From contig CBDCJO010000002.1 in the NCBI GenBank assembly GCA_965217865.1, forward strand, positions 3,520,001 through 3,584,000: a DNA stretch of 64,000 bases, read 5' to 3'. The position numbers were made by a program, and so were the translations under genes. Positions within the stretch are counted from its first letter, which is position 1, and the number at the start of each line of letters is the position of its first letter. The notes under the pieces are model-generated. The model was not told the DNA's origin and searched no databases. It worked only from the letters and a program-made list of their open reading frames with translations. Below are positions 38-13,473 of this stretch, one piece after another. The stretch comes from Candidatus Latescibacterota bacterium (lineage in GTDB: Bacteria; Latescibacterota; UBA2968; SICM01).

Positions 38-465
38 TCATGGCCCTCTTATTTCTACTTTGGGATCTTTCACGCAGAAGTATGGATATAGCAGCTTCCT
101 GGTGAAGCGTATCAACGGCTTGATCCCGGAGTCAAGGGCTCTTTGACACCAGGCGTCGAGCCATCTGGCTGCCCAGGCTTTGCGTTTGTAGATCCAGACT
201 CGTTTCAGGTCCTCTTTGAGGATGTAGGCGGTGTTCAAACGTTGATTGATGGCCAGGAGATCGCGGAGTCGGGCTGGCTCATCGCGGTCGGTTAGCAAGT
301 TCTTTCTGTTTTTGAGAAGTAGGTATTTGGTTCCTCGGATGATAGCCTTGTTGTCCTTGGAGGCTTTTCCACATTCATCGATCCGAACCCGATCGATTAC
401 TTTCTGGGCATAGATCTGGAGCAGGTGGAAGGGATCATAGACCGTGGCAGCGTCAGGACAATGCT
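38..465 (-). pseudogene. ISL3-family transposase internal fragment, fused in frame to the IS110 C-terminus
   Basis: Translation has YDPFHLLQ...IRGTKYLLLKNRKNL...LNTAYILKEDLKRVW...WLDAWCQRALDSGIKPLIRF, typical ISL3 motifs; no own start. Confidence 0.8.
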
Positions 466-1408
466 TGCGCTTCGCCTTGGCATCGTAGTATCTATTGATC
501 GGTTCTGACCATCTCTGAGCGACGAGGATGATTTCTGAGAAGGCCCACTTTAGGTGTGGGTTGCCGATTTTGTTATTCCCGTCCTTTGTCTTCTTCCCAG
601 CGGACTCTCTCTCAACTTTGATCAGCCTGCTGTAGGAGGAGAAGGCTGAAGCGGATTTGAACCGTTCAATCGTGTGGATTTCATACAGGATGGTCATGGC
701 CAGCATCTCCCCCAAGTCCGGGAACCGTCATCAGGATAGACAGGGCATTCCGATCGTGATGTTTGGCCTGTGCCAAGACTTGCTTTTCGACTTTGTAGAT
801 CATTTTGTCCAGGGAGTCAACCAGGTCCAGATCGCAGTCTACAGACATACCCAAATCTGGGTCGGGCAGACGTTCGCACAGCTTTCTCCTGCTGCTCTTC
901 TTTTTGACCTGATCGCTGAGAGGATCCAGGATAGCCTGCTGAGAGAAGGTGTTCTGGATGTGGGTGTAACACTCAGCCCGTAGGGCCACAAACCGGTGTC
1001 TTCGCCGGAGCAGGTCCCGGGTTGCCCGCATCTCTTGCGGATAGGCAAGGCATAGGCCATCGGGAACAGGTTGCAGCGCATCAGCTCTGCCAGCATTCTG
1101 GAATCGAGACGGTCGTTCTTCTTCTTGCCCCCGTGGATCGCCTTCATATACAGGGCGTGTCCCAGGTAGAATGGAATCCCGGCCTTGTGACACCCGTCAG
1201 CCAGCCAGTACCAGTTGAAGGTTGACTCAACCCCGACGGCGATGCTACTGAGGTGAGTTTCCAGCACTTGGAGCAAGAGTTTGAAGTCGTTTTTCAGGTT
1301 GCGCTGGAACACAATCTCTCCCATCTTGTCCATGATGCAGACAAACATCGTTCTGGCGTGGAGATCGATGCCACAAAAATAGTTCGAGTCGATCCTTGCG
1401 TATTGCAT
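466..1408 (-). pseudogene. IS110-family transposase, frameshifted twice and truncated
   Basis: N-terminal CGIDLH...VGVESTFNWYWL...KKKNDRLDS (839-1408) continues in 681-1193 (RATRDLLRRR...TVPGLG) and 38-715 (ERFKSASAFSSY...GNPHLKWAF); AGGAGG RBS before ATG 1408. Confidence 0.85.
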
Positions 1409-1599
1409 AAGGCCCTCCTGTGGGAGAAAGTTGATTGAGATGTCCGAATCCCAATTATAACCTCTCCTGACAACGAGGGCCTTTATATTAATATCACGGC
1501 GTGTGCGAGCTTCGGGGCATACGCCCCTTCGCCAAAACCCTGTTCCAGGGTTCGCACATGGGCGTTTTGTACAAGCCTAAGCTGGTTACGACCGATCCG

Positions 1600-1875
1600 A
1601 ATCTTTGAGAAGATGGCCACTACTTTGTTTAGGATGTCCCGTTCTTCCCGCGCGATGTCAAGATCTCGACGTAAACAGCGGTTCTCCTCCTCCAAAGGCT
1701 TCTGGTGACCTGTACCCGGGAACGCATCGATCGGGTCTGCCTCCAGCTCATCACGCCAGCGCCGGATCGCCCCCTGGTATAATCCCAGGTCCCGTTCTAT
1801 CTGCCGGTCCGTCTTTCCACTGGTGTCAGCCAGACGCACCGACTCTCTCTTGAACTCAGAATCAGTCCTCCGGCG
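1600..1875 (-). pseudogene. IS3-family OrfA fragment
   Basis: RRTDSEFKRESVRLA...IERDLGL...RRWR...AFPGTG...EENRCLRRDLDIAREERDILNK, an HTH_Tnp_1-like OrfA; OrfB absent. Confidence 0.8.
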
Positions 1876-2112: not shown

Positions 2113-3453
2113 TCATTCCCCTGGCCCCTGATCTTTCGCAATTTTTCCAAAGTCATCAGCAAAGATAAAAAAATCGTCGAAGTCGACGAGACCGCTCTTG
2201 TCCAGATCAAAAACCGGATCCGTTCCCCCGAAGGCCTCCGCGAACATAAAGAAATCGTCGAAGTCGATCCTCCCGTCCCCATCGAAATCAGTATCCGAAA
2301 CCGCAACCTGGATGTCCAGCGGGGGCAGACCCGATCCCGTTAAGGACACCCCGAACACTTCCCGTTCGGGATCGTTCGTCAAGAACGTCAACTCGTGGGT
2401 AGACATGACTTCGTCGATCGGCCGGTACACGATCGAGATCTCCCGGGATTCTCCCGCCGGAACCGTCACGGACGAATCCCCGATACTGAAAGACTGATTC
2501 CCGGAGGAGGCTCGAATCTCCAGGTCCTCCCCACCCGGACCGGCCCCATTCGATACGATCAAATTCAGAGTCCGGGAGGAACCTACGAAAACGTTTCCGA
2601 AGTTAAGCTTATCCGTCATTACGGACAGTACCGCAGGCAGAGGTGTCCACCGAAGGATGATCGACTGCTCCGCGGTATCCCCCTTGGTGTCCGATATGAT
2701 CAACAGAACCCGAATATCTTGGCCCAGCACCTCTGGCTTGGGTGTGAAACTCAGAGCCCCTCCTTCGGTTCCTTTTTCCCTGACCCCGATCAACTCCGGA
2801 TCGAAACCCTCGGCGCGCCATACCAGATCTTGAGGGTCGTCCTCTTCGTCGGAGCCGTATGAGGCCAGGTCGATCTCGATGGGTTCTGTCCCGGAGCCGG
2901 ACTGGTCAGGAATCAATGAGGTGATGGTTGGAGGGGTATTCGGAGGGGGAAGCAAAGACTGGATGGTGGAGACGATGGCACTCTCATTGAAGCGACTTCC
3001 AGGACTTCCTGAAGACACCCATCGGACGACTCCCCCCTGATCGATAACGATGAAGTTGTTGTTGCCCAATCTGTACTGGCTCCCCACCCGGCCGCCTTTG
3101 GTTAGAACCGGATAGGTCGTCTTGGTCAACCCGACGAAAATTTTCCTTACGTCATCCGGATTCCCGTCCCACACATCAATGCCGATGGCTTGAAACTCCT
3201 GATCCTTAAACCGCTGCCAGATTTTGTTCTCAACGGACGAACCGTCCGAGATGCAATCCGGTCATCTCCACCCGAAGAAGTTGACGAACACCACCTTTCC
3301 ACGGTAGTCGGACAGAGAATAATTCCTGTTATCCAACCCCTTCAACGTGAAATCCAGAGCGTTGTCCCCAACCCTCACCGCGGAGACGGCAGGCGCGTTC
3401 GGTCCAGCATACCAGAGGACCAGTCCTAAGAATAACCAAATGACCCTTTTCAT
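2113..3453 (-). CDS. Secreted selenoprotein: AhpC/TlpA-like redoxin (UxxC) + Ig-like domains + C-terminal double EF-hand/dockerin-like tail
   Basis: ORFs 3262-3486 and 2113-3174 share a frame; reading through TGA gives GKVVFVNFFGWR-U-PDCISDG; signal peptide MKRVIWLFLGLVLWY...; GAGGA RBS; DFDGDGRIDFDDFF and DLDKSGLVDFDDFF repeats. Confidence 0.85.
3216..3261 (-). promoter_or_regulatory. Bacterial SECIS-like hairpin directly 3' of the Sec UGA
   Basis: CCGGAUU-GCA-UCUC-GGACG-GUU-CGUCC-GUU-GAGA-ACAA-AAUCUGG forms nested stems with a G/U-containing apical loop. Confidence 0.7.
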
Positions 3454-3613
3454 ATCGAACCATCTTCCTCTCATCGGTTCCGACACTGGACATGCTAGGC
3501 ATGGGCGACATCGCGCAGGGCCAATAACAGCCCTTCGGTCTCATCACTTGCTTCACTGAAGGATACTCGGATTTCTTCTCTTTACTTTCGTTTCGCCGCT
3601 TATTGAGACCCGA

Positions 3614-4243
3614 TCACGGATCACGCTTTGCCTCGTGCTCAAATGCTCTGATCCGGCCAACGCAAGGCTCGATGATTGTGTCGATATCCGGCACTAAGCC
3701 CATTGTGCGCACCATAGCGAATGCCTTGATCTTCGCATGCGGAAATATGTCGTGAACGCGAGACGCACAAGCGAGCAACGTGCACCCCTTGGTGACGATG
3801 TCATCAACCAAAAGGATACGTGTCGGCTTCAGCAACTCGTCCGCCACCGAGATTGAATCGTAATGCGTTTTGACATTGGGGCGGGAGCCCTGCGCTTGAA
3901 ACGCCGACTTCTGTACCTGGTGATCACGTCGAACGTTGCACATTACGTTGTTCGCAAGTCCTTCCTCCAGCAACACATTGCAGATCTGCTCGCTAACCCA
4001 CAATACCAATTCGTTCTTGCGCGGGGCGCTCCCCGGAACTGGCATCAGCACCACATCGTTCCCAAAAAAGTTCCCAAACTTGTTATCGGCAAGGTGCCGG
4101 CGAACTTGTGCCGCCATCTTTAACAGAGCCGGCTTGTGCGCGCACTTTACCCAATCGCGTATACATCTTGATTGCTTCGCTGTCTCCGATTTGCCCCTTG
4201 GGGAATAGATGTAGCAGGACGCGAAATGGAGTTCAGAAAGCAA
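3614..4243 (-). CDS. ComF-like phosphoribosyltransferase (PRTase)
   Basis: VVLMPVPGS and ILLVDDIVTKGCTL (PRPP-binding) motifs; TTG start at 4243 with GGAGG RBS overlapping the DprA 3' end. Confidence 0.8.
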   Translation of the reverse strand: MLSELHFASCYIYSPRGKSETAKQSRCIRDWVKCAHKPALLKMAAQVRRHLADNKFGNFFGNDVVLMPVPGSAPRKNELVLWVSEQICNVLLEEGLANNVMCNVRRDHQVQKSAFQAQGSRPNVKTHYDSISVADELLKPTRILLVDDIVTKGCTLLACASRVHDIFPHAKIKAFAMVRTMGLVPDIDTIIEPCVGRIRAFEHEAKRDP

Positions 4244-4970
4244 ACGCTTCGACCTCCTTGCGATCAGTGTAGGCCGGCAGATTGTCGAGAACAAACGTTA
4301 GGTTCTCTCTGGCCAACTTCTGTGCGCCGTAGGATATCATTTCTTGTGGCCATGACAAGCGCTTATCTTCGGCGACGTTATCCATTATGAAAACGTCTCT
4401 GCCGAGCCTGAGTGCTTCCCAGCCTTGATGCTGAGTGCCACTCTTTTTACTCGCCTCAACGATCACCGTTGCATCGGTAAGCAAAGCCATGGTGCGATTC
4501 CGCATTGGGAAGTTTTTAGGCGTCGCTGGATAGCCAGTCGGAAACTGCGAAACCGCCGCGTGCTCCGACATAATTTTTAGCTGCAAAGCTTTGTTCTCGG
4601 CCGGATAGAACGTGTCCAATGGTGTGCCGAGCACAGCAATGGTGTGCCCGCCGAGCTTCATTGCCGTTTCGTGCGCAACAGCATCGACACCAGCGGCCAA
4701 TCCGCTGACGACAATTATATCCTGACCAATAAGTTCCTTAACGAGATTTCGCGCACGCTTGACGCCAGCGTCGCTGACCTTCCTCGATCCGACCACGGAT
4801 ACACGCCGACCAGCACGAAGCAGGTCGACATCGCCAGCAACGTAGAGCTGATTCGGCGCGTTCTTCTCCTCGATATTATTAAGCTGGCCGAGCAATTCAT
4901 TGAGTCTATAGCTTCGTTGGTTCATAGCTGGATGGGAAGCGCGCTGAGCACCTGATTTGAGATTCGCCAC
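4233..4970 (-). CDS. Short DprA/SMF-like (SLOG) protein
   Basis: VSVVGSR, IVVSGLAAGVDAVAH, TIAVLGT, NFPMRNRTMA, VIVEASKKSGT motifs; lacks the SAM and C-terminal domains of housekeeping DprA. Confidence 0.9.
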   Translation of the reverse strand: MANLKSGAQRASHPAMNQRSYRLNELLGQLNNIEEKNAPNQLYVAGDVDLLRAGRRVSVVGSRKVSDAGVKRARNLVKELIGQDIIVVSGLAAGVDAVAHETAMKLGGHTIAVLGTPLDTFYPAENKALQLKIMSEHAAVSQFPTGYPATPKNFPMRNRTMALLTDATVIVEASKKSGTQHQGWEALRLGRDVFIMDNVAEDKRLSWPQEMISYGAQKLARENLTFVLDNLPAYTDRKEVEAFAF

Positions 4971-5619
4971 TGGGGGCCTCCTATTTCAATGTATAGCGTC
5001 CCAACACCAACGCTAAGTGCATAATCCTCGGATGTTTACGGCCAAGGCTGTCCGAGAGTGGTTGGTTCGAAGATGTAGCAGGCTTCAATTACGTTGTATA
5101 CCGCTTCATTCCAGGTGGTTGGCATTTCTTCGACTCCTTTTGCGTGATTGTGATTTACTTTCCACCGACTTTTTGAAACAGGAGGAATGATGTCGGCTTG
5201 GTTATATCTTTTTTCTGAGATCGCCCGAAAAGACGGGGGCAAGGTCGAAGCAGGATCCTGGTTGCCTATAGGTTGAAGGGCCTATATGTGGGGAGCTACT
5301 GGCGACCAAATTGAGGGTTTTTTTGTTGGTACAAAAGACGATCTAGAATGGTATAGGGACAGAGGGGGGGTATACCAAGAATCCGAGATGCTTTGTACCA
5401 CGCCTCGACTCGACCGCCAGGGGGTCGCTCTCGTCCGATTTATCCCTGCGGACTGCTTTGGAAAATTCCTTAACTCGTTTACTATAAATGATTTACTAAT
5501 TCATCGAAGATGCTCGTCCCCCCATTATGTCCACCGGGACGAAACGGATTTCCCCAGACCCTATTGGCCGTTGACGGAGGTGCGTCGGCTCCGGAACGCC
5601 TCGCGCCCGAGGCGGACCG

Positions 5620-5879: not shown

Positions 5880-6440
5880 CTCGACCCTGGTCGGCCACGC
5901 AGTTTGACAGAAGAAGAGGAGTCCCTGATCGCAGAAATCGCGACAGCGCCTCCCCAGGCCTTTGGCCGTCCTTTCAACCAGTGGTCTCTGAGGAAGCTGA
6001 GGGATTTTCTGGTTGAAAAGAGACTGATTCAGCCGGTCAGTCACAACGTCATCCGTCGCGTCCTGAAGAATCGAAAGATTACTTATCAGCGAACCCGGAC
6101 CTGGAAGCGATCCAACGACCCGGCATACGACGCTAAAAAAAACGCATCAAAGCGCTCTACAAGAAGGCCCCACAAAGGTGCTCGGTAATCTGCTTCGACG
6201 AATTCGGACCCATCCAGGTCAAACCACAACACGGTAACGCTTGGGCGCCACAGAAAAGCCCTGTCAGACTCCGTGCCACCTACCGCCGGTTTCAAAGGCG
6301 TGAGCCACTTTTTAGCGGCGTATGATGTTCATCAAGACCGCCTGTGGATGCATCAGAAAAAGCGCAAACGATGGCAGGAGGTCCTCCGTTTTCTCAAATC
6401 GATTCGACGGCGATACCCGAAGGACAGACGCCTATACATT
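5880..6440 (+). pseudogene. IS630-family transposase fragment
   Basis: PGRP...WSLRKL...RTRTWKRSNDP, an A8 tract at ~6135, then CFDEFGP and FLAAYDVHQDRLW...FLKSIRRRYP; truncated at both ends. Confidence 0.85.
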
Positions 6441-6787
6441 GTCCCACCCTTTGGGTGTCAATTCCCAATAACCTCGACCAGATTCTGGTGGCGGTTTCAC
6501 AAGGCCTTGGGTTTTTGCGCTCTGGTTTGCCCAAGCAATGTTGTGCCGCCATCTCGGTACCCCATGAGAAACTGACTCATTGTAATAGGGGTGCTCGAAT
6601 ATTTCAGCAAACTCCTCATATATTGCTTCTTCAACCTGCTTTTTTGCCGCCCTTCCGCCAAGGTTCCGAAGGGTCCTCAGGATATGTACGACGAGCTCTT
6701 GCTGGGAAACCCGAGTTTGTTCCTGACCATCATCGGGAGATTGGTTAATTTCAATGGGACGGGTAACTGGCTCGTAGGTAGTAAAAT
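6432..6787 (-). pseudogene. C-terminal Mrr-N-like winged-helix domain; 5' part removed by an IS end
   Basis: ILRTLRNLGG...RWRHNIAWA...GLVK...RGYWELTPKG; the upstream sequence is the IS3 end. Confidence 0.75.
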
Positions 6788-6914
6788 TGTATCTATTCTG
6801 AGATAACAAGAGAAAAGTAGATAAAGGTCCAAGCAAGATTCAGGCAGCCTTGTGGATGGTCTGGGATGTTCTTTGCCGATTGATTTCTATGCGGCGCTGC
6901 CGAGCCTCCTCCTT
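6788..6914 (-). mobile_element. Solo right end of the IS3-family element at 37511-39013
   Basis: 127 bp almost identical to 37511-37637, including the last transposase codons EEARQRRIEINRQRTSQTIHKAA. Confidence 0.92.
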
Positions 6915-8381
6915 GGCACTGCCCCAGGGGGGATTGCCGACAATGACATGGGCCTTTATGGGTAAAGCCGCGGCTTCCGTGAAGAAATCAGCCCAACGGA
7001 TTGTCCCTACTGGTAGATTCGTAGTGGTCTCGCCAGGGATGGAAACTAAGTGAGGAAGATTCCACTTTCCGAGCAGTTTCTGGATGTCAGGAGGCGACAA
7101 CTGATCCAGGAAAGCAAGGTAAAGGCTGAATGCCGTGATCTGACAGGCACTTCGGTTGCTGTCCACGCCGTAAAGGTTGGTGCGGAGAACGTCCATGAGG
7201 CCGTTAGCCCGGCGGTCGTAACGTGCTCCGGGATTCTTCAACTTCCATTCTTCGGCAAGCCGGTTGAACAGTCCGACGAGGAAAATGCCTGAGCCGCAAG
7301 CAGGATCGAGGAATCTCTTGTCGAGAAGTGAAGTTTCACCCTCCAAGGCCACGTCCAAAACAAATTCTGCCAGAAACCTGGGGGTGTAAAAGGCTCCGGC
7401 TTCCTTCTTCTGCTCCTCTCCGGCAGCCTTAAGGAAGTGTTCGTAAATCGCACTGATGGTTTCAATCGGGATGAAACCGAAATCGTAGGGCCAGAAGGCT
7501 TGCTGTCCTGATTGAACATTGGTGCCGTGGAAGAAGCGATCAAGGATTTCAAGATGCTCAACCTTGATCTGCCTACTTTCTTCCTTCAGGTCGGCACTGA
7601 AAAGATCGCCGTTTAAGTCGTTGGCAAGTCGGCTGAACAGCTTGTAGAGATCGGCCTTGGCATCCGTCCGGGGCTTCTTGGCAAGAATGTCCTTCAAGTG
7701 ATCCGCGCCGTGGATACGAAACGTCTTGAGGTAGGCCCTGTCGATAATGCCACGATCGAACAGGTAGCAGGCGAAAACCAAGCGGCAAAGAAGTGCATCG
7801 AGTGTCTGCGGCTCAAGCCGTGCGGCTTGGACCCGGCTAAGCTCCTGCCGTGTGGCCTGAAGGTTGCGGAGCAATTCTCGGTCAACCCGTTTACGTGGAT
7901 CAAAGGAACGCCGGTAGACGTAAAAATACTCACCGGATTCAACTGACAGCAGGAAAGACTGAAGCTGATCCTGAACGCGATTAAGCATCTCGACAAATCC
8001 AGGTGCCCGTCCAGCTTCGGTCAGAGTATCCGCCGGGGGAATTAGCCCTGAATAGACGTGAACATCGTCTGGAGCAACGATGACCAAGATCGGAGCGATC
8101 CCTTGGTTCCAGAAGGAACGATGAAGACGAAGGATGCCTTCCGGGTCAATTTTCTCGACTTGACAGAAGTAGATAATCGGCTGGAGGCCCCCATCAGGAC
8201 CAGCTCGATCTTGGCAGAGGACTCCGTTGATTCCAAGTTGTTCAAAGGCTCGCCGAAGGGCATGCAGCTGCGGCACCTTTCCCGCCGCGTATTCAAGTTG
8301 GTCCACGCTTGAAAAGAAATGCGGCGGCTTTCGGCCATCAAGGCCAAAATCTTTCTTCCAGTCTTTTTTGGTAGTGGTCAT
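6915..8381 (-). pseudogene. N6-adenine DNA methyltransferase (type IIG/HsdM-like RM), truncated after motif IV
   Basis: ISAIYE...GAFYTP...FLDPACGSGIFL...LYGVD...IVGNPPW, then fusion to the IS tail; no target-recognition domain. Confidence 0.85.
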
Positions 8382-11295: not shown

Positions 11296-13215
11296 ATGTG
11301 TATGGGACGGACCCCGGAATTGACGCCTGACCGGATGCAAGCGATTCGCGAAGGCCTTGGTCTCACGCAGGAGGAAGCTGGCAGGCTCTTGGGAGGCGGT
11401 CCACGGGCCTTCACCAAGTACGAAGCCGGGAGCCTGAAACCGAGGGCCGCTGCGATCAATCTGCTGCGCGTACTGGAGCTATATCCCGACGCGCTTGGGG
11501 TTCTTCGAGGAGGCGAGCTTCATCCCGCGAGTTCTCGGGTCCCCGCCCCGTTCGAGGTGGAATCCGACGACATTGCTTCGCTTGGGCCTCCTGCTTTTCC
11601 CAATCTCCTGCGACAACTCCTCTCTGCTGAGGCCCGAGAGTACGGCCTTCCCCAAGACGGCATCCGCGTCGCCAGCAACATCCATGTCCCCGATGGAGGG
11701 GAGGACGGGCGAATCTCATGGCGGGGCCGTCCCGAGCGCACTCCATTCCTGCCGTCCCGGCTATGTCAGTTTCAGTTGAAGGTCGGCAAGATAGAGCCCG
11801 CTCGGGCGGGCAACGATGTCCTGACGAACGGAACCGAAGTGAAGGCAATGGTCCGCTCGGTCCTTGAGCGGGGCGGACACTACATCATGCTCTGCGCGCA
11901 GCCCTATAACCAACGGCAGGTAGAGGCGCGGCAGCGTGGCATCTGTGACGCTCTGAGGAAGGCCGGATTGTCGGTTCCGGATCACCTGGTCAGCTTTTGG
12001 GAAGCCGATCAAATCGCCGCGTGGGTGAATACCCACCAATCGGTTGCCCTCTGGGTCAGGGAAGAGGTGGGGCTTGGGACGCTCGGCGGCTTTACTTCGT
12101 GGAACCATTGGAAGGGCCGGAGCGAGCACTCTGTGCGATGGGTAGACGATCCCCGACTGGCCGACCTGCGCCGCACGATTCGGGACAAGGTGACGGAGTC
12201 CGGCGCGGTTCTCCGGGTGGTCGGGTTGTCGGGTATCGGCAAGTCGCGGCTCTGTCTCGAGGCACCGAAGAGAGTCGGCGAAGACGAAATTGTCGGCGCT
12301 CGCTTCGGGACTTCGTCATGTACGCAGTACAGTCTGAAGTGGGTGCGGAAGCGATTCATCCCATCGTCGAAAACTGGCCGTCTCCGGCGGACGCGCCGTC
12401 GTGGTCGTGGACGACTGCGATGCGCGAGGACATGCCATCTTGGCCGGGATAGTGTCGCGCCCGGGCAGCCGCCTATCACTGGTCGCATCGATATGAGATT
12501 CCCTCTCATATCGATGCGACTACCATCAAGATTGACGAGGCCCCGGCGACTGTCATCGAACCCATCGTCGACCATGTCGCTGCAACACTGGATCGTCACC
12601 CCCTTGCACGCCTCTCACGGGGATTCCCGGAAGTTGCAATCCGAATCGCCAACGAATCTGATACGAGGGGACACCTCACCTATCCGGCCGACGACCACCT
12701 TATTGACGAATTCGTCTGCGGTCGTAGGCCCACGGACAGGCGCTGTTGCTCCAATCGGCCAACTGCTCGCGGCGTTCGGACCGGTAAGAGTAGAGCCTGC
12801 GGAAGAGGCATACCTCGGCACGTTTCAAACGGTCGGAACGGAATCCTCAACCGAAGAACATCTCGCGAGGATTGCCGACCTCGGTCGCCAACCCGCCCGC
12901 GATGACCTGTACACAGGAATCCAACGACTCGTCCAACGAGGCGTAGTCAAGCGTAGAGGAGGGCTCGGGACGATTCAACCGCGTCCAATCGCCGTCAGGC
13001 TCGCGGAACGACAGTGGAGGAAATGGGATAAGAGGAAGTGGGACCGGGTGCTATCGGGCGACATCGGCTCGGACCTAAGTGTCTCGGCGGCCCGGCGCCT
13101 CGCTGAACTGAATGCTTCGGAGATAGCCAACAAAGTGGTGGATCACGTCTGCCGGGAGGGCGGGGACTTCGACCGAGTCGATGGGATTGTCCTTCAAAGT
13201 CGTGTGAAGGTGCTT
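11296..13215 (+). pseudogene. MqsA-like HTH + REase-like domain + P-loop ATPase (STAND/Avs-like), multiply frameshifted and truncated
   Basis: IREGLGLTQEEAGRLLGGGPRAFTKYEAG; DGGEDG...FQLK; VLRVVGLSGIGKSRL; the frame is lost between ~12290 and 12760, with a Walker-B-like VVVVDDC in another frame. Confidence 0.7.
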
Positions 13216-13473
13216 TCAGGCGATGATCCACCACCACACGCCCTACAATGTGGAGTACGTCAACATCTTCCCGTTCGACGCAACGACCGTTTCGATTAGC
13301 GGCAAGAACGCGAACCTCGACAGCAACTCTACCATTGCACACGACGCTCAGGACAGGCGGGCTGGGTCGCGCGACCCTGCTCGGTAGCACGAAGCGCAGT
13401 TAAGGTCGACTGTCAATGCGGACAAGAAGGATCAAGGGAGGCTGAGCGATTGGGCCAGGGGATTCACAGGCAA

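What the first reader, a model, noticed from the sequence alone, without database searches (positions are those of the whole stretch)
2113..3453. Hidden secreted selenoprotein: UxxC redoxin fused to Ig-like and EF-hand/dockerin-like anchor domains
Seen: two ORFs in the track are one frame broken only by TGA at 3262-3264, exactly at the first Cys position of the thioredoxin-fold motif (FFGWR-TGA-PDC). A nested hairpin follows immediately. Known: bacterial Sec insertion uses an in-frame UGA plus an adjacent SECIS, and UxxC redoxins exist. Inference: a 446-aa exported, surface-tethered Sec oxidoreductase with an unusual architecture that standard annotation would split.
Basis: partly seen in the sequence, partly recalled or inferred. 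Interest (0 to 1): 0.72.

Follow-up and report, generated by a model that had tools for sequence, protein, structure and literature searches.

The report
Exported selenocysteine redoxin with dockerin tail
Two apparent genes are one reading frame broken only by a TGA codon that is very likely read as selenocysteine, giving a thioredoxin-fold protein with a predicted export signal and a dockerin-like tail that would let it work as a selenium redox enzyme in the cell envelope; public gene calls keep only its rear part.

Summary
Confirmed. Window 3453-2113 (minus strand) is one 446-codon frame with one internal TGA (3264-3262) at the first position of a UxxC motif. The genome has selA, selB, selD and tRNA-Sec. 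In relatives, 146 of the 150 best listed matches carry a TGA and 4 carry Cys; 33 of 34 TGA copies have a SECIS-like hairpin (background 8%). Architecture: predicted signal peptide, ResA/TlpA-fold redoxin, two Ig-like domains, and a dockerin-like tail (best solved matches: cellulosomal dockerins). Relatives swap that tail for a type IX secretion (T9SS)/FlgD-like or SWGxK tail. The redoxin lacks the usual cis-proline (0 of 35) and groups with Cys-form T9SS-tailed redoxins. Surface tethering is not shown: this protein has no T9SS tail. UxxC redoxin selenoproteins are known, so this is a new variant. The scan already reported T9SS-tailed forms on other DNA (8 notes); the dockerin form, the missing proline and tandem Sec/Cys pairs were not in the notes I saw.

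The parts
2113..3453 (-). Whole gene, 446 codons plus terminal TGA, one internal TGA read as Sec64 (inferred)
   Evidence: 89% identical paralogue has the same start, TGA and end. An in-frame ATG at 3474 is absent from the paralogue.
3379..3453 (-). Predicted Sec-pathway signal peptide, residues 1-25 (MKR, hydrophobic core, V-S-A before the mature start)
   Evidence: sequence; the only stretch with 11-residue hydropathy above 1.8 is residues 3-17; similar N-termini in relatives by inspection. No signal-peptide predictor was available.
2944..3378 (-). Thioredoxin-fold redoxin domain (AhpC-TSA/Redoxin, ResA/TlpA-like), residues 26-170
   Evidence: PF00578 45.7 bits and PF08534 32.4 bits, both over cut-off; model pLDDT 85-96 over mature residues 1-120, 80-92 over 121-150; VIA Z 20.4, rmsd 1.9, 138 aligned to 3gl3
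3262..3264 (-). In-frame TGA, Sec64 of G-W-R-U-P-D-C; Cys67 is at 3255-3253
   Evidence: TGA in 34 of 35 aligned copies, TGC in 1
3229..3251 (-). SECIS-like hairpin; upper stem 3248-3234, GGU at +21 to +23 from the U of UGA (3243-3241)
   Evidence: E. coli fdhF has GGT at the same +21 to +23; 17 of 18 Gly codons at this place in the family are GGT against 0.18 genome-wide
3058..3060 (-). Asn132, at the position of the thioredoxin-fold cis-proline
   Evidence: HMM alignment: Pro in 0 of 35 family rows, 3 of 123 GxxCxxC Cys domains, 20 of 26 WCxxC domains; Pro in 3kcm, 3hdc, 4nmu but not 2ls5
2641..2931 (-). First Ig-like beta domain, about residues 175-271
   Evidence: all-beta domain in the model; Big_9 only E 0.0068, below cut-off
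2329..2631 (-). Second Ig-like domain (ASH / HYDIN-VesB / choice-of-anchor D-like), about residues 275-375
   Evidence: PF15780 39.4 bits and PF22544 34.5 bits, over cut-off; NF012200 30.3 bits, under its cut-off of 45
2137..2307 (-). Dockerin-like module: two Ca-loop/helix repeats, residues 382-438
   Evidence: profile A3 best PDB matches 2y3n_B (E 1.8e-9, whole module), 4wi0_B, 4u3s_B, cellulosomal chains, ahead of calcineurin B and calmodulin; two helices, pLDDT 86-96; Dockerin_1 hit by 15 of 23 and dockerin_GC by 22 of 23 members at E<=0.01, this protein under the GC cut-off

Best explanation
This is one gene whose internal TGA is very likely decoded as selenocysteine, encoding a predicted exported thioredoxin-fold oxidoreductase that likely uses its Sec64/Cys67 pair to reduce disulfides of envelope or surface proteins and is likely held in place by its dockerin-like tail. 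Steps: (1) SelB binds the hairpin after the UGA and inserts Sec (strongly inferred). (2) The signal peptide takes the protein across the inner membrane (predicted). (3) The selenolate attacks an oxidised substrate, Cys67 resolves it, and the selenenyl-sulfide is re-reduced, possibly by the genome's DsbD-type protein (inferred from family chemistry; no substrate known). (4) Two Ig-like domains act as a stalk, and the Ca-binding dockerin-like module binds a partner, most plausibly one of the cohesin-like domains in this genome, several of which sit just before a T9SS tail (hypothesis).
For: Sec: selA 578 bits, selB 356 bits, selD 386 bits with its own in-frame TGA, all over cut-off; tRNA-Sec(TCA). 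TGA inside 146 of the 150 listed best matches in the phylum search, none in 4, and those 4 are Cys codons. Hairpin rule 33 of 34 vs 8.2%. Mean z -1.36 against synonymous recoding over 31 distinct windows, vs 0.0 and +0.5 for flanking windows. After the TGA, this gene and its paralogue differ at 48 synonymous and 40 non-synonymous of 377 codons, which indicates selection on the protein. selB is in 120 of 130 other class genomes, the family in 108 of 130. Fold: ResA/DsbE/TlpA-like. Export: nearest Cys relatives are signal + GxxCxxC redoxin + T9SS type A tail, over cut-off in 9 of 15 scanned proteins (I chose the 15), 67 of 150 by motif. In the class the same redoxin carries a dockerin-like, FlgD/T9SS-like or SWGxK tail. 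The genome has SprA, five PorV-family genes, a C25 peptidase, 20 T9SS-tail matches, 6 cohesin matches over cut-off and one DsbD-type protein.
Against: No protein or 75Se evidence, and no usable RNA evidence. In this single copy the hairpin is only p 0.059 against synonymous recoding, and only 6 of 31 family windows reach p<0.05. My hairpin rule misses the genome's own selD, so it is only a rough SECIS test. The cis-proline that classical disulfide exchangers keep is absent, which weakens the disulfide-reductase reading. The protein has no T9SS tail, so how it would cross the outer membrane is unexplained. The dockerin-like module is not always C-terminal: its last motif is within 40 residues of the end in 38 of 57 ORFs, so it is not a strict sorting signal. 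Four TGA-bearing genomes had no selB match (G074, G095, G024, G037; 75-91% complete, 430-820 contigs). Kin are not independent, so the counts overstate the number of events.
Confidence: 0.6

Rival explanations
1. Same selenoprotein, but an exported peroxide or oxidant scavenger (Prx/GPx-like chemistry) rather than a protein disulfide exchanger.
For: No cis-proline; Cys relatives have Asp-Arg there (Asp 111, next Arg 92 of 123), and peroxiredoxins have Arg at this site (PMC2757866 passage). AhpE and Bcp are near ties in the fold search (Z 19.3 and 18.6 vs 20.4).
Against: No PxxxTxxU/C peroxidatic motif. Arg follows that position in only 2 of 35 rows of the class family. Prx and GPx models score far under cut-off. 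Best sequence matches are ResA/TlpA-like.
Confidence: 0.2
2. Same selenoprotein, but the U-x-x-C site binds a metal or metalloid (for example Cu, Hg or an Fe-S cluster) in the envelope.
For: [quoted passage not shown] 2007). The family has Glu 15, Asp 9, His 5 of 35 at that position, all possible ligands.
Against: This protein has Asn there. The position varies across seven residues, unlike a fixed ligand. No metal-handling genes are among the neighbours scanned.
Confidence: 0.12
3. A real exported selenoprotein that stays soluble or loosely bound in the periplasm; the tail is a Ca-binding or self-association module with no cohesin partner. This concerns location only and overlaps with the other readings.
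For: No T9SS tail. The module also occurs far from the C-terminus, in some ORFs ahead of a T9SS tail. A DsbD-type reductant source would act in the periplasm.
Against: In relatives the tail takes the place of a T9SS/FlgD tail on the same redoxin. Ig stalks of up to several repeats occur in family f3, which suits display at a distance.
Confidence: 0.4
4. The TGA is a nonsense mutation and the gene is a pseudogene.
For: This copy sits alone among IS fragments and defence genes, and a third paralogue has lost its 5' end.
Against: The same TGA is in all three copies in the genome and across four families. Sec machinery is complete. The SECIS position is conserved. Changes after the TGA are mostly synonymous.
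Confidence: 0.02

Closest known systems
[quoted passage not shown]
   Same: Same Pfam domains, same UxxC motif, one Sec.
   Different: No entry name in the 119-entry table mentions a T9SS, FlgD, dockerin or Ig fusion; 'secret' occurs 0 times in the main text. I did not fetch the table's representative sequences, so overlap with them is not excluded. For this protein no NCBIfam selenoprotein model comes near its cut-off.
ResA / TlpA / DsbE(CcmG) extracytoplasmic thiol-disulfide reductases (PDB 3gl3, 2f9s, 4nmu, 3kcm)
   Same: Same fold (Z about 20, rmsd 1.7-1.9), exported, two-residue redox motif.
   Different: Sec for the first Cys; G-x-x-U instead of A-x-W-C; no cis-proline; cleavable signal with Ig and dockerin-like domains instead of a membrane anchor; ResA model 50 bits vs cut-off 170.
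Uncharacterised GxxCxxC redoxins with a T9SS type A tail (e.g. P0058, named 'T9SS C-terminal target domain-containing protein', Calditrichota)
   Same: Same G-x-x-C/U-x-x-C motif, same loss of the proline, signal peptide; grouped in trees (FastTree 0.983; IQ-TREE SH-aLRT only 82).
   Different: Cys not Sec; T9SS tail not dockerin; Asp-Arg at the proline site. I found no functional study of them.
Cellulosomal dockerins (2y3n_B, 4wi0_B, 4u3s_B) and NCBIfam GC-type dockerin NF041540
   Same: Two Ca-loop plus helix repeats, whole-module alignment.
   Different: Here in a T9SS-bearing bacterium, on a redox enzyme; under curated cut-offs; cohesin partner not shown.
SAO-system selenoproteins exposed outside the cytoplasm (SaoB, SaoC, SaoX; bioRxiv 10.1101/2022.07.06.499078)
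   Same: Show that exported bacterial selenoproteins are already known (passages).
   Different: Different folds and motifs; part of an ABC-transport operon; mostly lipoprotein signals.

Membership tests
Bacterial selenoprotein | In-frame UGA at a catalytic Cys position, with Cys homologues | tested here: met
Bacterial selenoprotein | selA, selB, selC, selD in the genome | tested here: met
Bacterial selenoprotein | SECIS hairpin just 3' of the UGA with G in the apical loop | tested here: met
   weak alone (p 0.059), strong across the family
Bacterial selenoprotein | Selenium shown in the protein | not testable with these tools
   needs 75Se or MS
UxxC redoxin selenoproteins (PF00578/PF08534) | Pfam domain over cut-off plus UxxC | tested here: met
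   table
ResA/TlpA/CcmG disulfide reductases | TlpA-type thioredoxin fold | tested here: met
ResA/TlpA/CcmG disulfide reductases | cis-proline before the third core strand and Trp before the first Cys | tested here: not met
   Asn132 and Arg63; Pro in 0 of 35. Judged from alignments, not from model geometry.
ResA/TlpA/CcmG disulfide reductases | NCBIfam model over cut-off | tested here: not met
   50.4 vs 170 and 18.7 vs 230 bits
Peroxiredoxins | PxxxTxxC/U motif and Arg at the cis-proline site | tested here: not met
   sequence; motifs as given
Dockerin | Duplicated Ca-loop plus helix, best solved relatives cellulosomal dockerins | tested here: met
Dockerin | Curated family score | tested here: inconclusive
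   NF041540 23.5 vs 29 bits for this module; PF00404 not hit by this protein at E<=0.01 but by 15 of 23 members
Dockerin | Ca-dependent binding to a cohesin | not testable with these tools
   needs a binding assay; cohesin-like domains exist in the genome
T9SS cargo | T9SS type A C-terminal domain | tested here: not met
   no TIGR04183 or PF18962 hit in this protein; its place is not among the 20 genome matches

The most novel reading that the evidence does not exclude
A class-wide family of proline-less selenoenzymes is displayed on the cell surface, and in this lineage a dockerin-like tag has replaced the T9SS tail, so the enzyme reaches or stays at the surface by docking on cohesin-bearing T9SS cargo. 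That would be a cellulosome-style assembly system built on type IX secretion, serving dozens of dockerin-tagged proteins in this genome and carrying a selenium redox catalyst.
Probability: 0.25. Interest if true: 0.8.

Novelty: new variant of a known kind. Interest (0 to 1): 0.55.

Why it matters
It adds an exported, modular form to the bacterial selenoproteome that gene callers cut in two, in 108 of 130 other genomes of one uncultured class (profile matches; some weak ones may be ordinary redoxins). Natural Sec/Cys pairs lying side by side in one genome (3 cases) allow a direct test of what selenium adds outside the cytoplasm. The family is also a natural test of what a thioredoxin-fold enzyme does without its cis-proline. 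The interchange of dockerin-like, T9SS-like and SWGxK tails on one enzyme gives a handle on what these tails do in uncultured bacteria.

Tried and rejected
Single-sequence fold failed (pLDDT 37); the alignment-based fold was used. Complex prediction of one cohesin-like domain (A4) with the dockerin-like tail (A3) gave no answer (0.03, mark 0.32): evidence neither way, and only one of at least six cohesin-like domains was tried. The fold searches were filled by the redoxin and Ig domains, so the tail was not tested by fold. One RNA run (X15) held a 144-base piece over 3131-3274 at share 0.07: too small to show expression or habitat. The search for related loci found nothing with this protein; with a relative it gave 5 loci, three titled 'Gemmatimonadota bacterium', which does not fix the window's taxon. 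My recollection that this lineage is Latescibacterota comes from no call, and my recollection that PMC4454575 describes dockerins was wrong (0 hits for dockerin, cohesin, scaffold, selen). The first motif-plus-hairpin genome scan was too noisy (286 candidates) and served only as background. The promoter/terminator scan was near chance. Neighbouring genes (IS pieces, ShosTA-like pair, restriction-modification remnant) were rejected as partners: similarity to the paralogue covers only 2134-3478. Paper searches found no description of this family in their listings: selenoprotein+Latescibacter, selenoprotein+UxxC+bacteria+signal peptide (25), Latescibacter+dockerin (26), selenoprotein families+TlpA etc. 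(29), selenocysteine+type IX secretion (61), Latescibacter+cohesin (88), dockerin/cohesin/non-cellulosomal/type IX secretion (92), selenoprotein+sorting domain (121). The library lacks most subscription papers, and I opened no supplements; supplementary lists of selenoprotein surveys may hold members.

Full report
Observation. The feature lies on the minus strand. Window 3453-2113 translates to 446 residues with one internal TGA at codon 64, in FFGWR-U-PDC, the first position of a thioredoxin CxxC. Gene callers keep only the rear: a 353-aa ORF from GTG 3174, and 9 of 9 members of its database cluster are 324-353 aa. Contigs of two public runs from different studies span the TGA unchanged.

Selenocysteine. 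The genome has selA, selB and selD over their cut-offs, selD with its own TGA, and tRNA-Sec. Two paralogues in the genome (89% and 62%) carry the same TGA. Among 35 aligned matches from this genome and relatives, 34 have TGA and 1 has TGC at this position. A profile search of 161 genomes of the phylum matched 122; of the 150 best matches listed (90 more were not listed), 146 contain a TGA and 4 do not. All 4 are Cys codons, and 3 of them lie next to a TGA copy. selB is found in 120 of 130 other class genomes. After the TGA this gene and its paralogue differ at 48 synonymous and 40 non-synonymous of 377 codons. I put Sec read-through at about 0.97.

SECIS. The 50 nt from the UGA fold with z -2.8, other window lengths less well. 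A fixed rule (stem of at least 5 pairs, loop starting 16-27 nt from the UGA, G in its first two places) is met by 33 of 34 TGA copies and by 1970 of 24167 background TGA codons. It misses selD, so it is rough. Against synonymous recoding the family mean is z -1.36 over 31 windows (6 at p<0.05; this copy p 0.059), with flanking controls at 0.0 and +0.5. GGT stands at +21 to +23 here and in E. coli fdhF; 17 of 18 Gly codons at that place are GGT against 0.18 genome-wide. The sequences are related, so this is not a formal probability.

Anatomy. Residues 1-25 look like a cleavable signal peptide. Residues 26-170 match AhpC-TSA and Redoxin over cut-off. A model from a 79-row alignment has mean pLDDT 85.6 and four domains; the redoxin matches DsbE/ResA-type chains at Z about 20, with AhpE and Bcp close behind. 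Two Ig-like domains follow. The last module is dockerin-like: its profile finds three cellulosomal chains first (2y3n_B over the whole module, E 1.8e-9), then calcineurin B; it stays under curated cut-offs. A motif scan finds it in 57 ORFs of the genome, near the C-terminus in 38.

The family. In one search, 59 distinct copies were recovered from loci L017-L086 by a motif that requires U or C, so it cannot count other residues. Of the 44 complete TGA copies, 27 end in a FlgD/T9SS-like tail, 12 in the dockerin-like tail, 3 in SWGxK, and 2 were unassigned (one is dockerin-like by eye, one runs into a gap); 11 TGA copies run off their locus. All 4 Cys copies have the dockerin-like tail. The nearest proteins among 1.8 billion representatives are mostly signal + GxxCxxC redoxin, many with a T9SS type A tail. 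The cis-proline position holds Pro in 0 of 35 family rows, 3 of 123 GxxC domains and 20 of 26 WCxxC domains; rows with more than 35 gaps were dropped. That proline is described as more conserved than the CxxC itself, with Arg in its place in peroxiredoxins (PMC2757866, passages). Trees group the Gxx(U/C) proteins apart from WCxxC proteins with support 0.983 in FastTree (213 rows) but only 82 in IQ-TREE (80 sampled rows), so the subfamily is likely but not firmly resolved. 2ls5, a solved WCxxC protein, also lacks the proline, so its loss is not unique to this family.

Mechanism. Best reading: an exported Sec/Cys oxidoreductase acting on envelope or surface disulfides, held by its tail (0.6 overall; export about 0.9). 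The genome has SprA, PorV-family genes, a C25 peptidase, T9SS-tailed proteins, cohesin-like domains, several directly before a T9SS tail, and a DsbD-type protein. This protein has no T9SS tail, so surface display would need docking on a partner; that is a hypothesis. Peroxidase and metal-binding readings stay open because the proline is missing.

Context. This copy shares only 2134-3478 with its paralogue and lies among IS fragments, a ShosTA-like pair and a restriction-modification remnant. It looks like a relocated duplicate, and the neighbours are not part of the system.

Known and new. UxxC redoxin selenoproteins with these Pfam domains are listed in PMC13188914 (I read parts 1-2 of 3 of section 7, with Table 1, and keyword passages), and exported selenoproteins are known from the SAO system (passages only). 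The paper searches listed under Tried and rejected showed no description of this family; other papers were seen as listings only. Earlier notes of this scan report T9SS-tailed versions on other DNA (8 shown); a search with dockerin, cohesin and cis-proline showed none, nor did a search by sequence. These notes are not independent support. Verdict: real, a new variant of a known kind, interest 0.55.

Noticed in passing
window 3614-4294 (-) and 4233-4970 (-): Phosphoribosyltransferase plus DprA pair matching ShosT (E 1e-19) and ShosA (E 5e-73): a ShosTA-type defence toxin-antitoxin pair.
   Followed up: partly
window 38-1864, 6432-6836 (-), 6840-8381 (-): Nested IS110, ISL3 and small transposase fragments with many copies in the genome; an Mrr N-terminal domain protein; a 513-aa type IIG restriction-modification-like ORF, about half the model length.
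   Followed up: partly
G000:C2:5187289-5190182 (L008, L009): Tandem paralogues: the first has lost its signal peptide and 5' end but keeps TGA and hairpin; the second is intact, 89% identical to the window gene.
   Followed up: yes
L018, L077, L078: Cys and Sec copies of the redoxin lie side by side in three genomes; the Cys copy in L018 still has the hairpin.
   Followed up: partly
G000:C2:4474866 (-), 4319422 (+), 3955119 (-), 4110522 (+): Other likely selenoproteins with coding-like sequence on both sides of a TGA and a hairpin: ATWUPLC, CDYU, GHUSTC, LGTUT. They resemble DUF3179, AhpD-like, UGSC-like and OsmC-like families; labels are recalled, not scanned.
   Followed up: no
G000 genome-wide: 57 ORFs with a dockerin-like motif, 9 cohesin matches (6 over cut-off) and 20 T9SS-tail matches; combinations include cohesin+T9SS tail, dockerin+cohesin+T9SS tail and cohesin+dockerin. 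This may be an undescribed surface assembly system.
   Followed up: partly
L023, L050, L058; P0022, P0076, P0153, P0161: A short C-terminal (S/T)WGx(V/I)K motif ends several family members in place of the larger tails.
   Followed up: no
window 5200-5276: A roughly 75-base element with dozens of 91-93% identical copies in the genome.
   Followed up: no
window 11296-13299 (+): MqsA-type antitoxin helix-turn-helix fused to an ATPase-like region.
   Followed up: no
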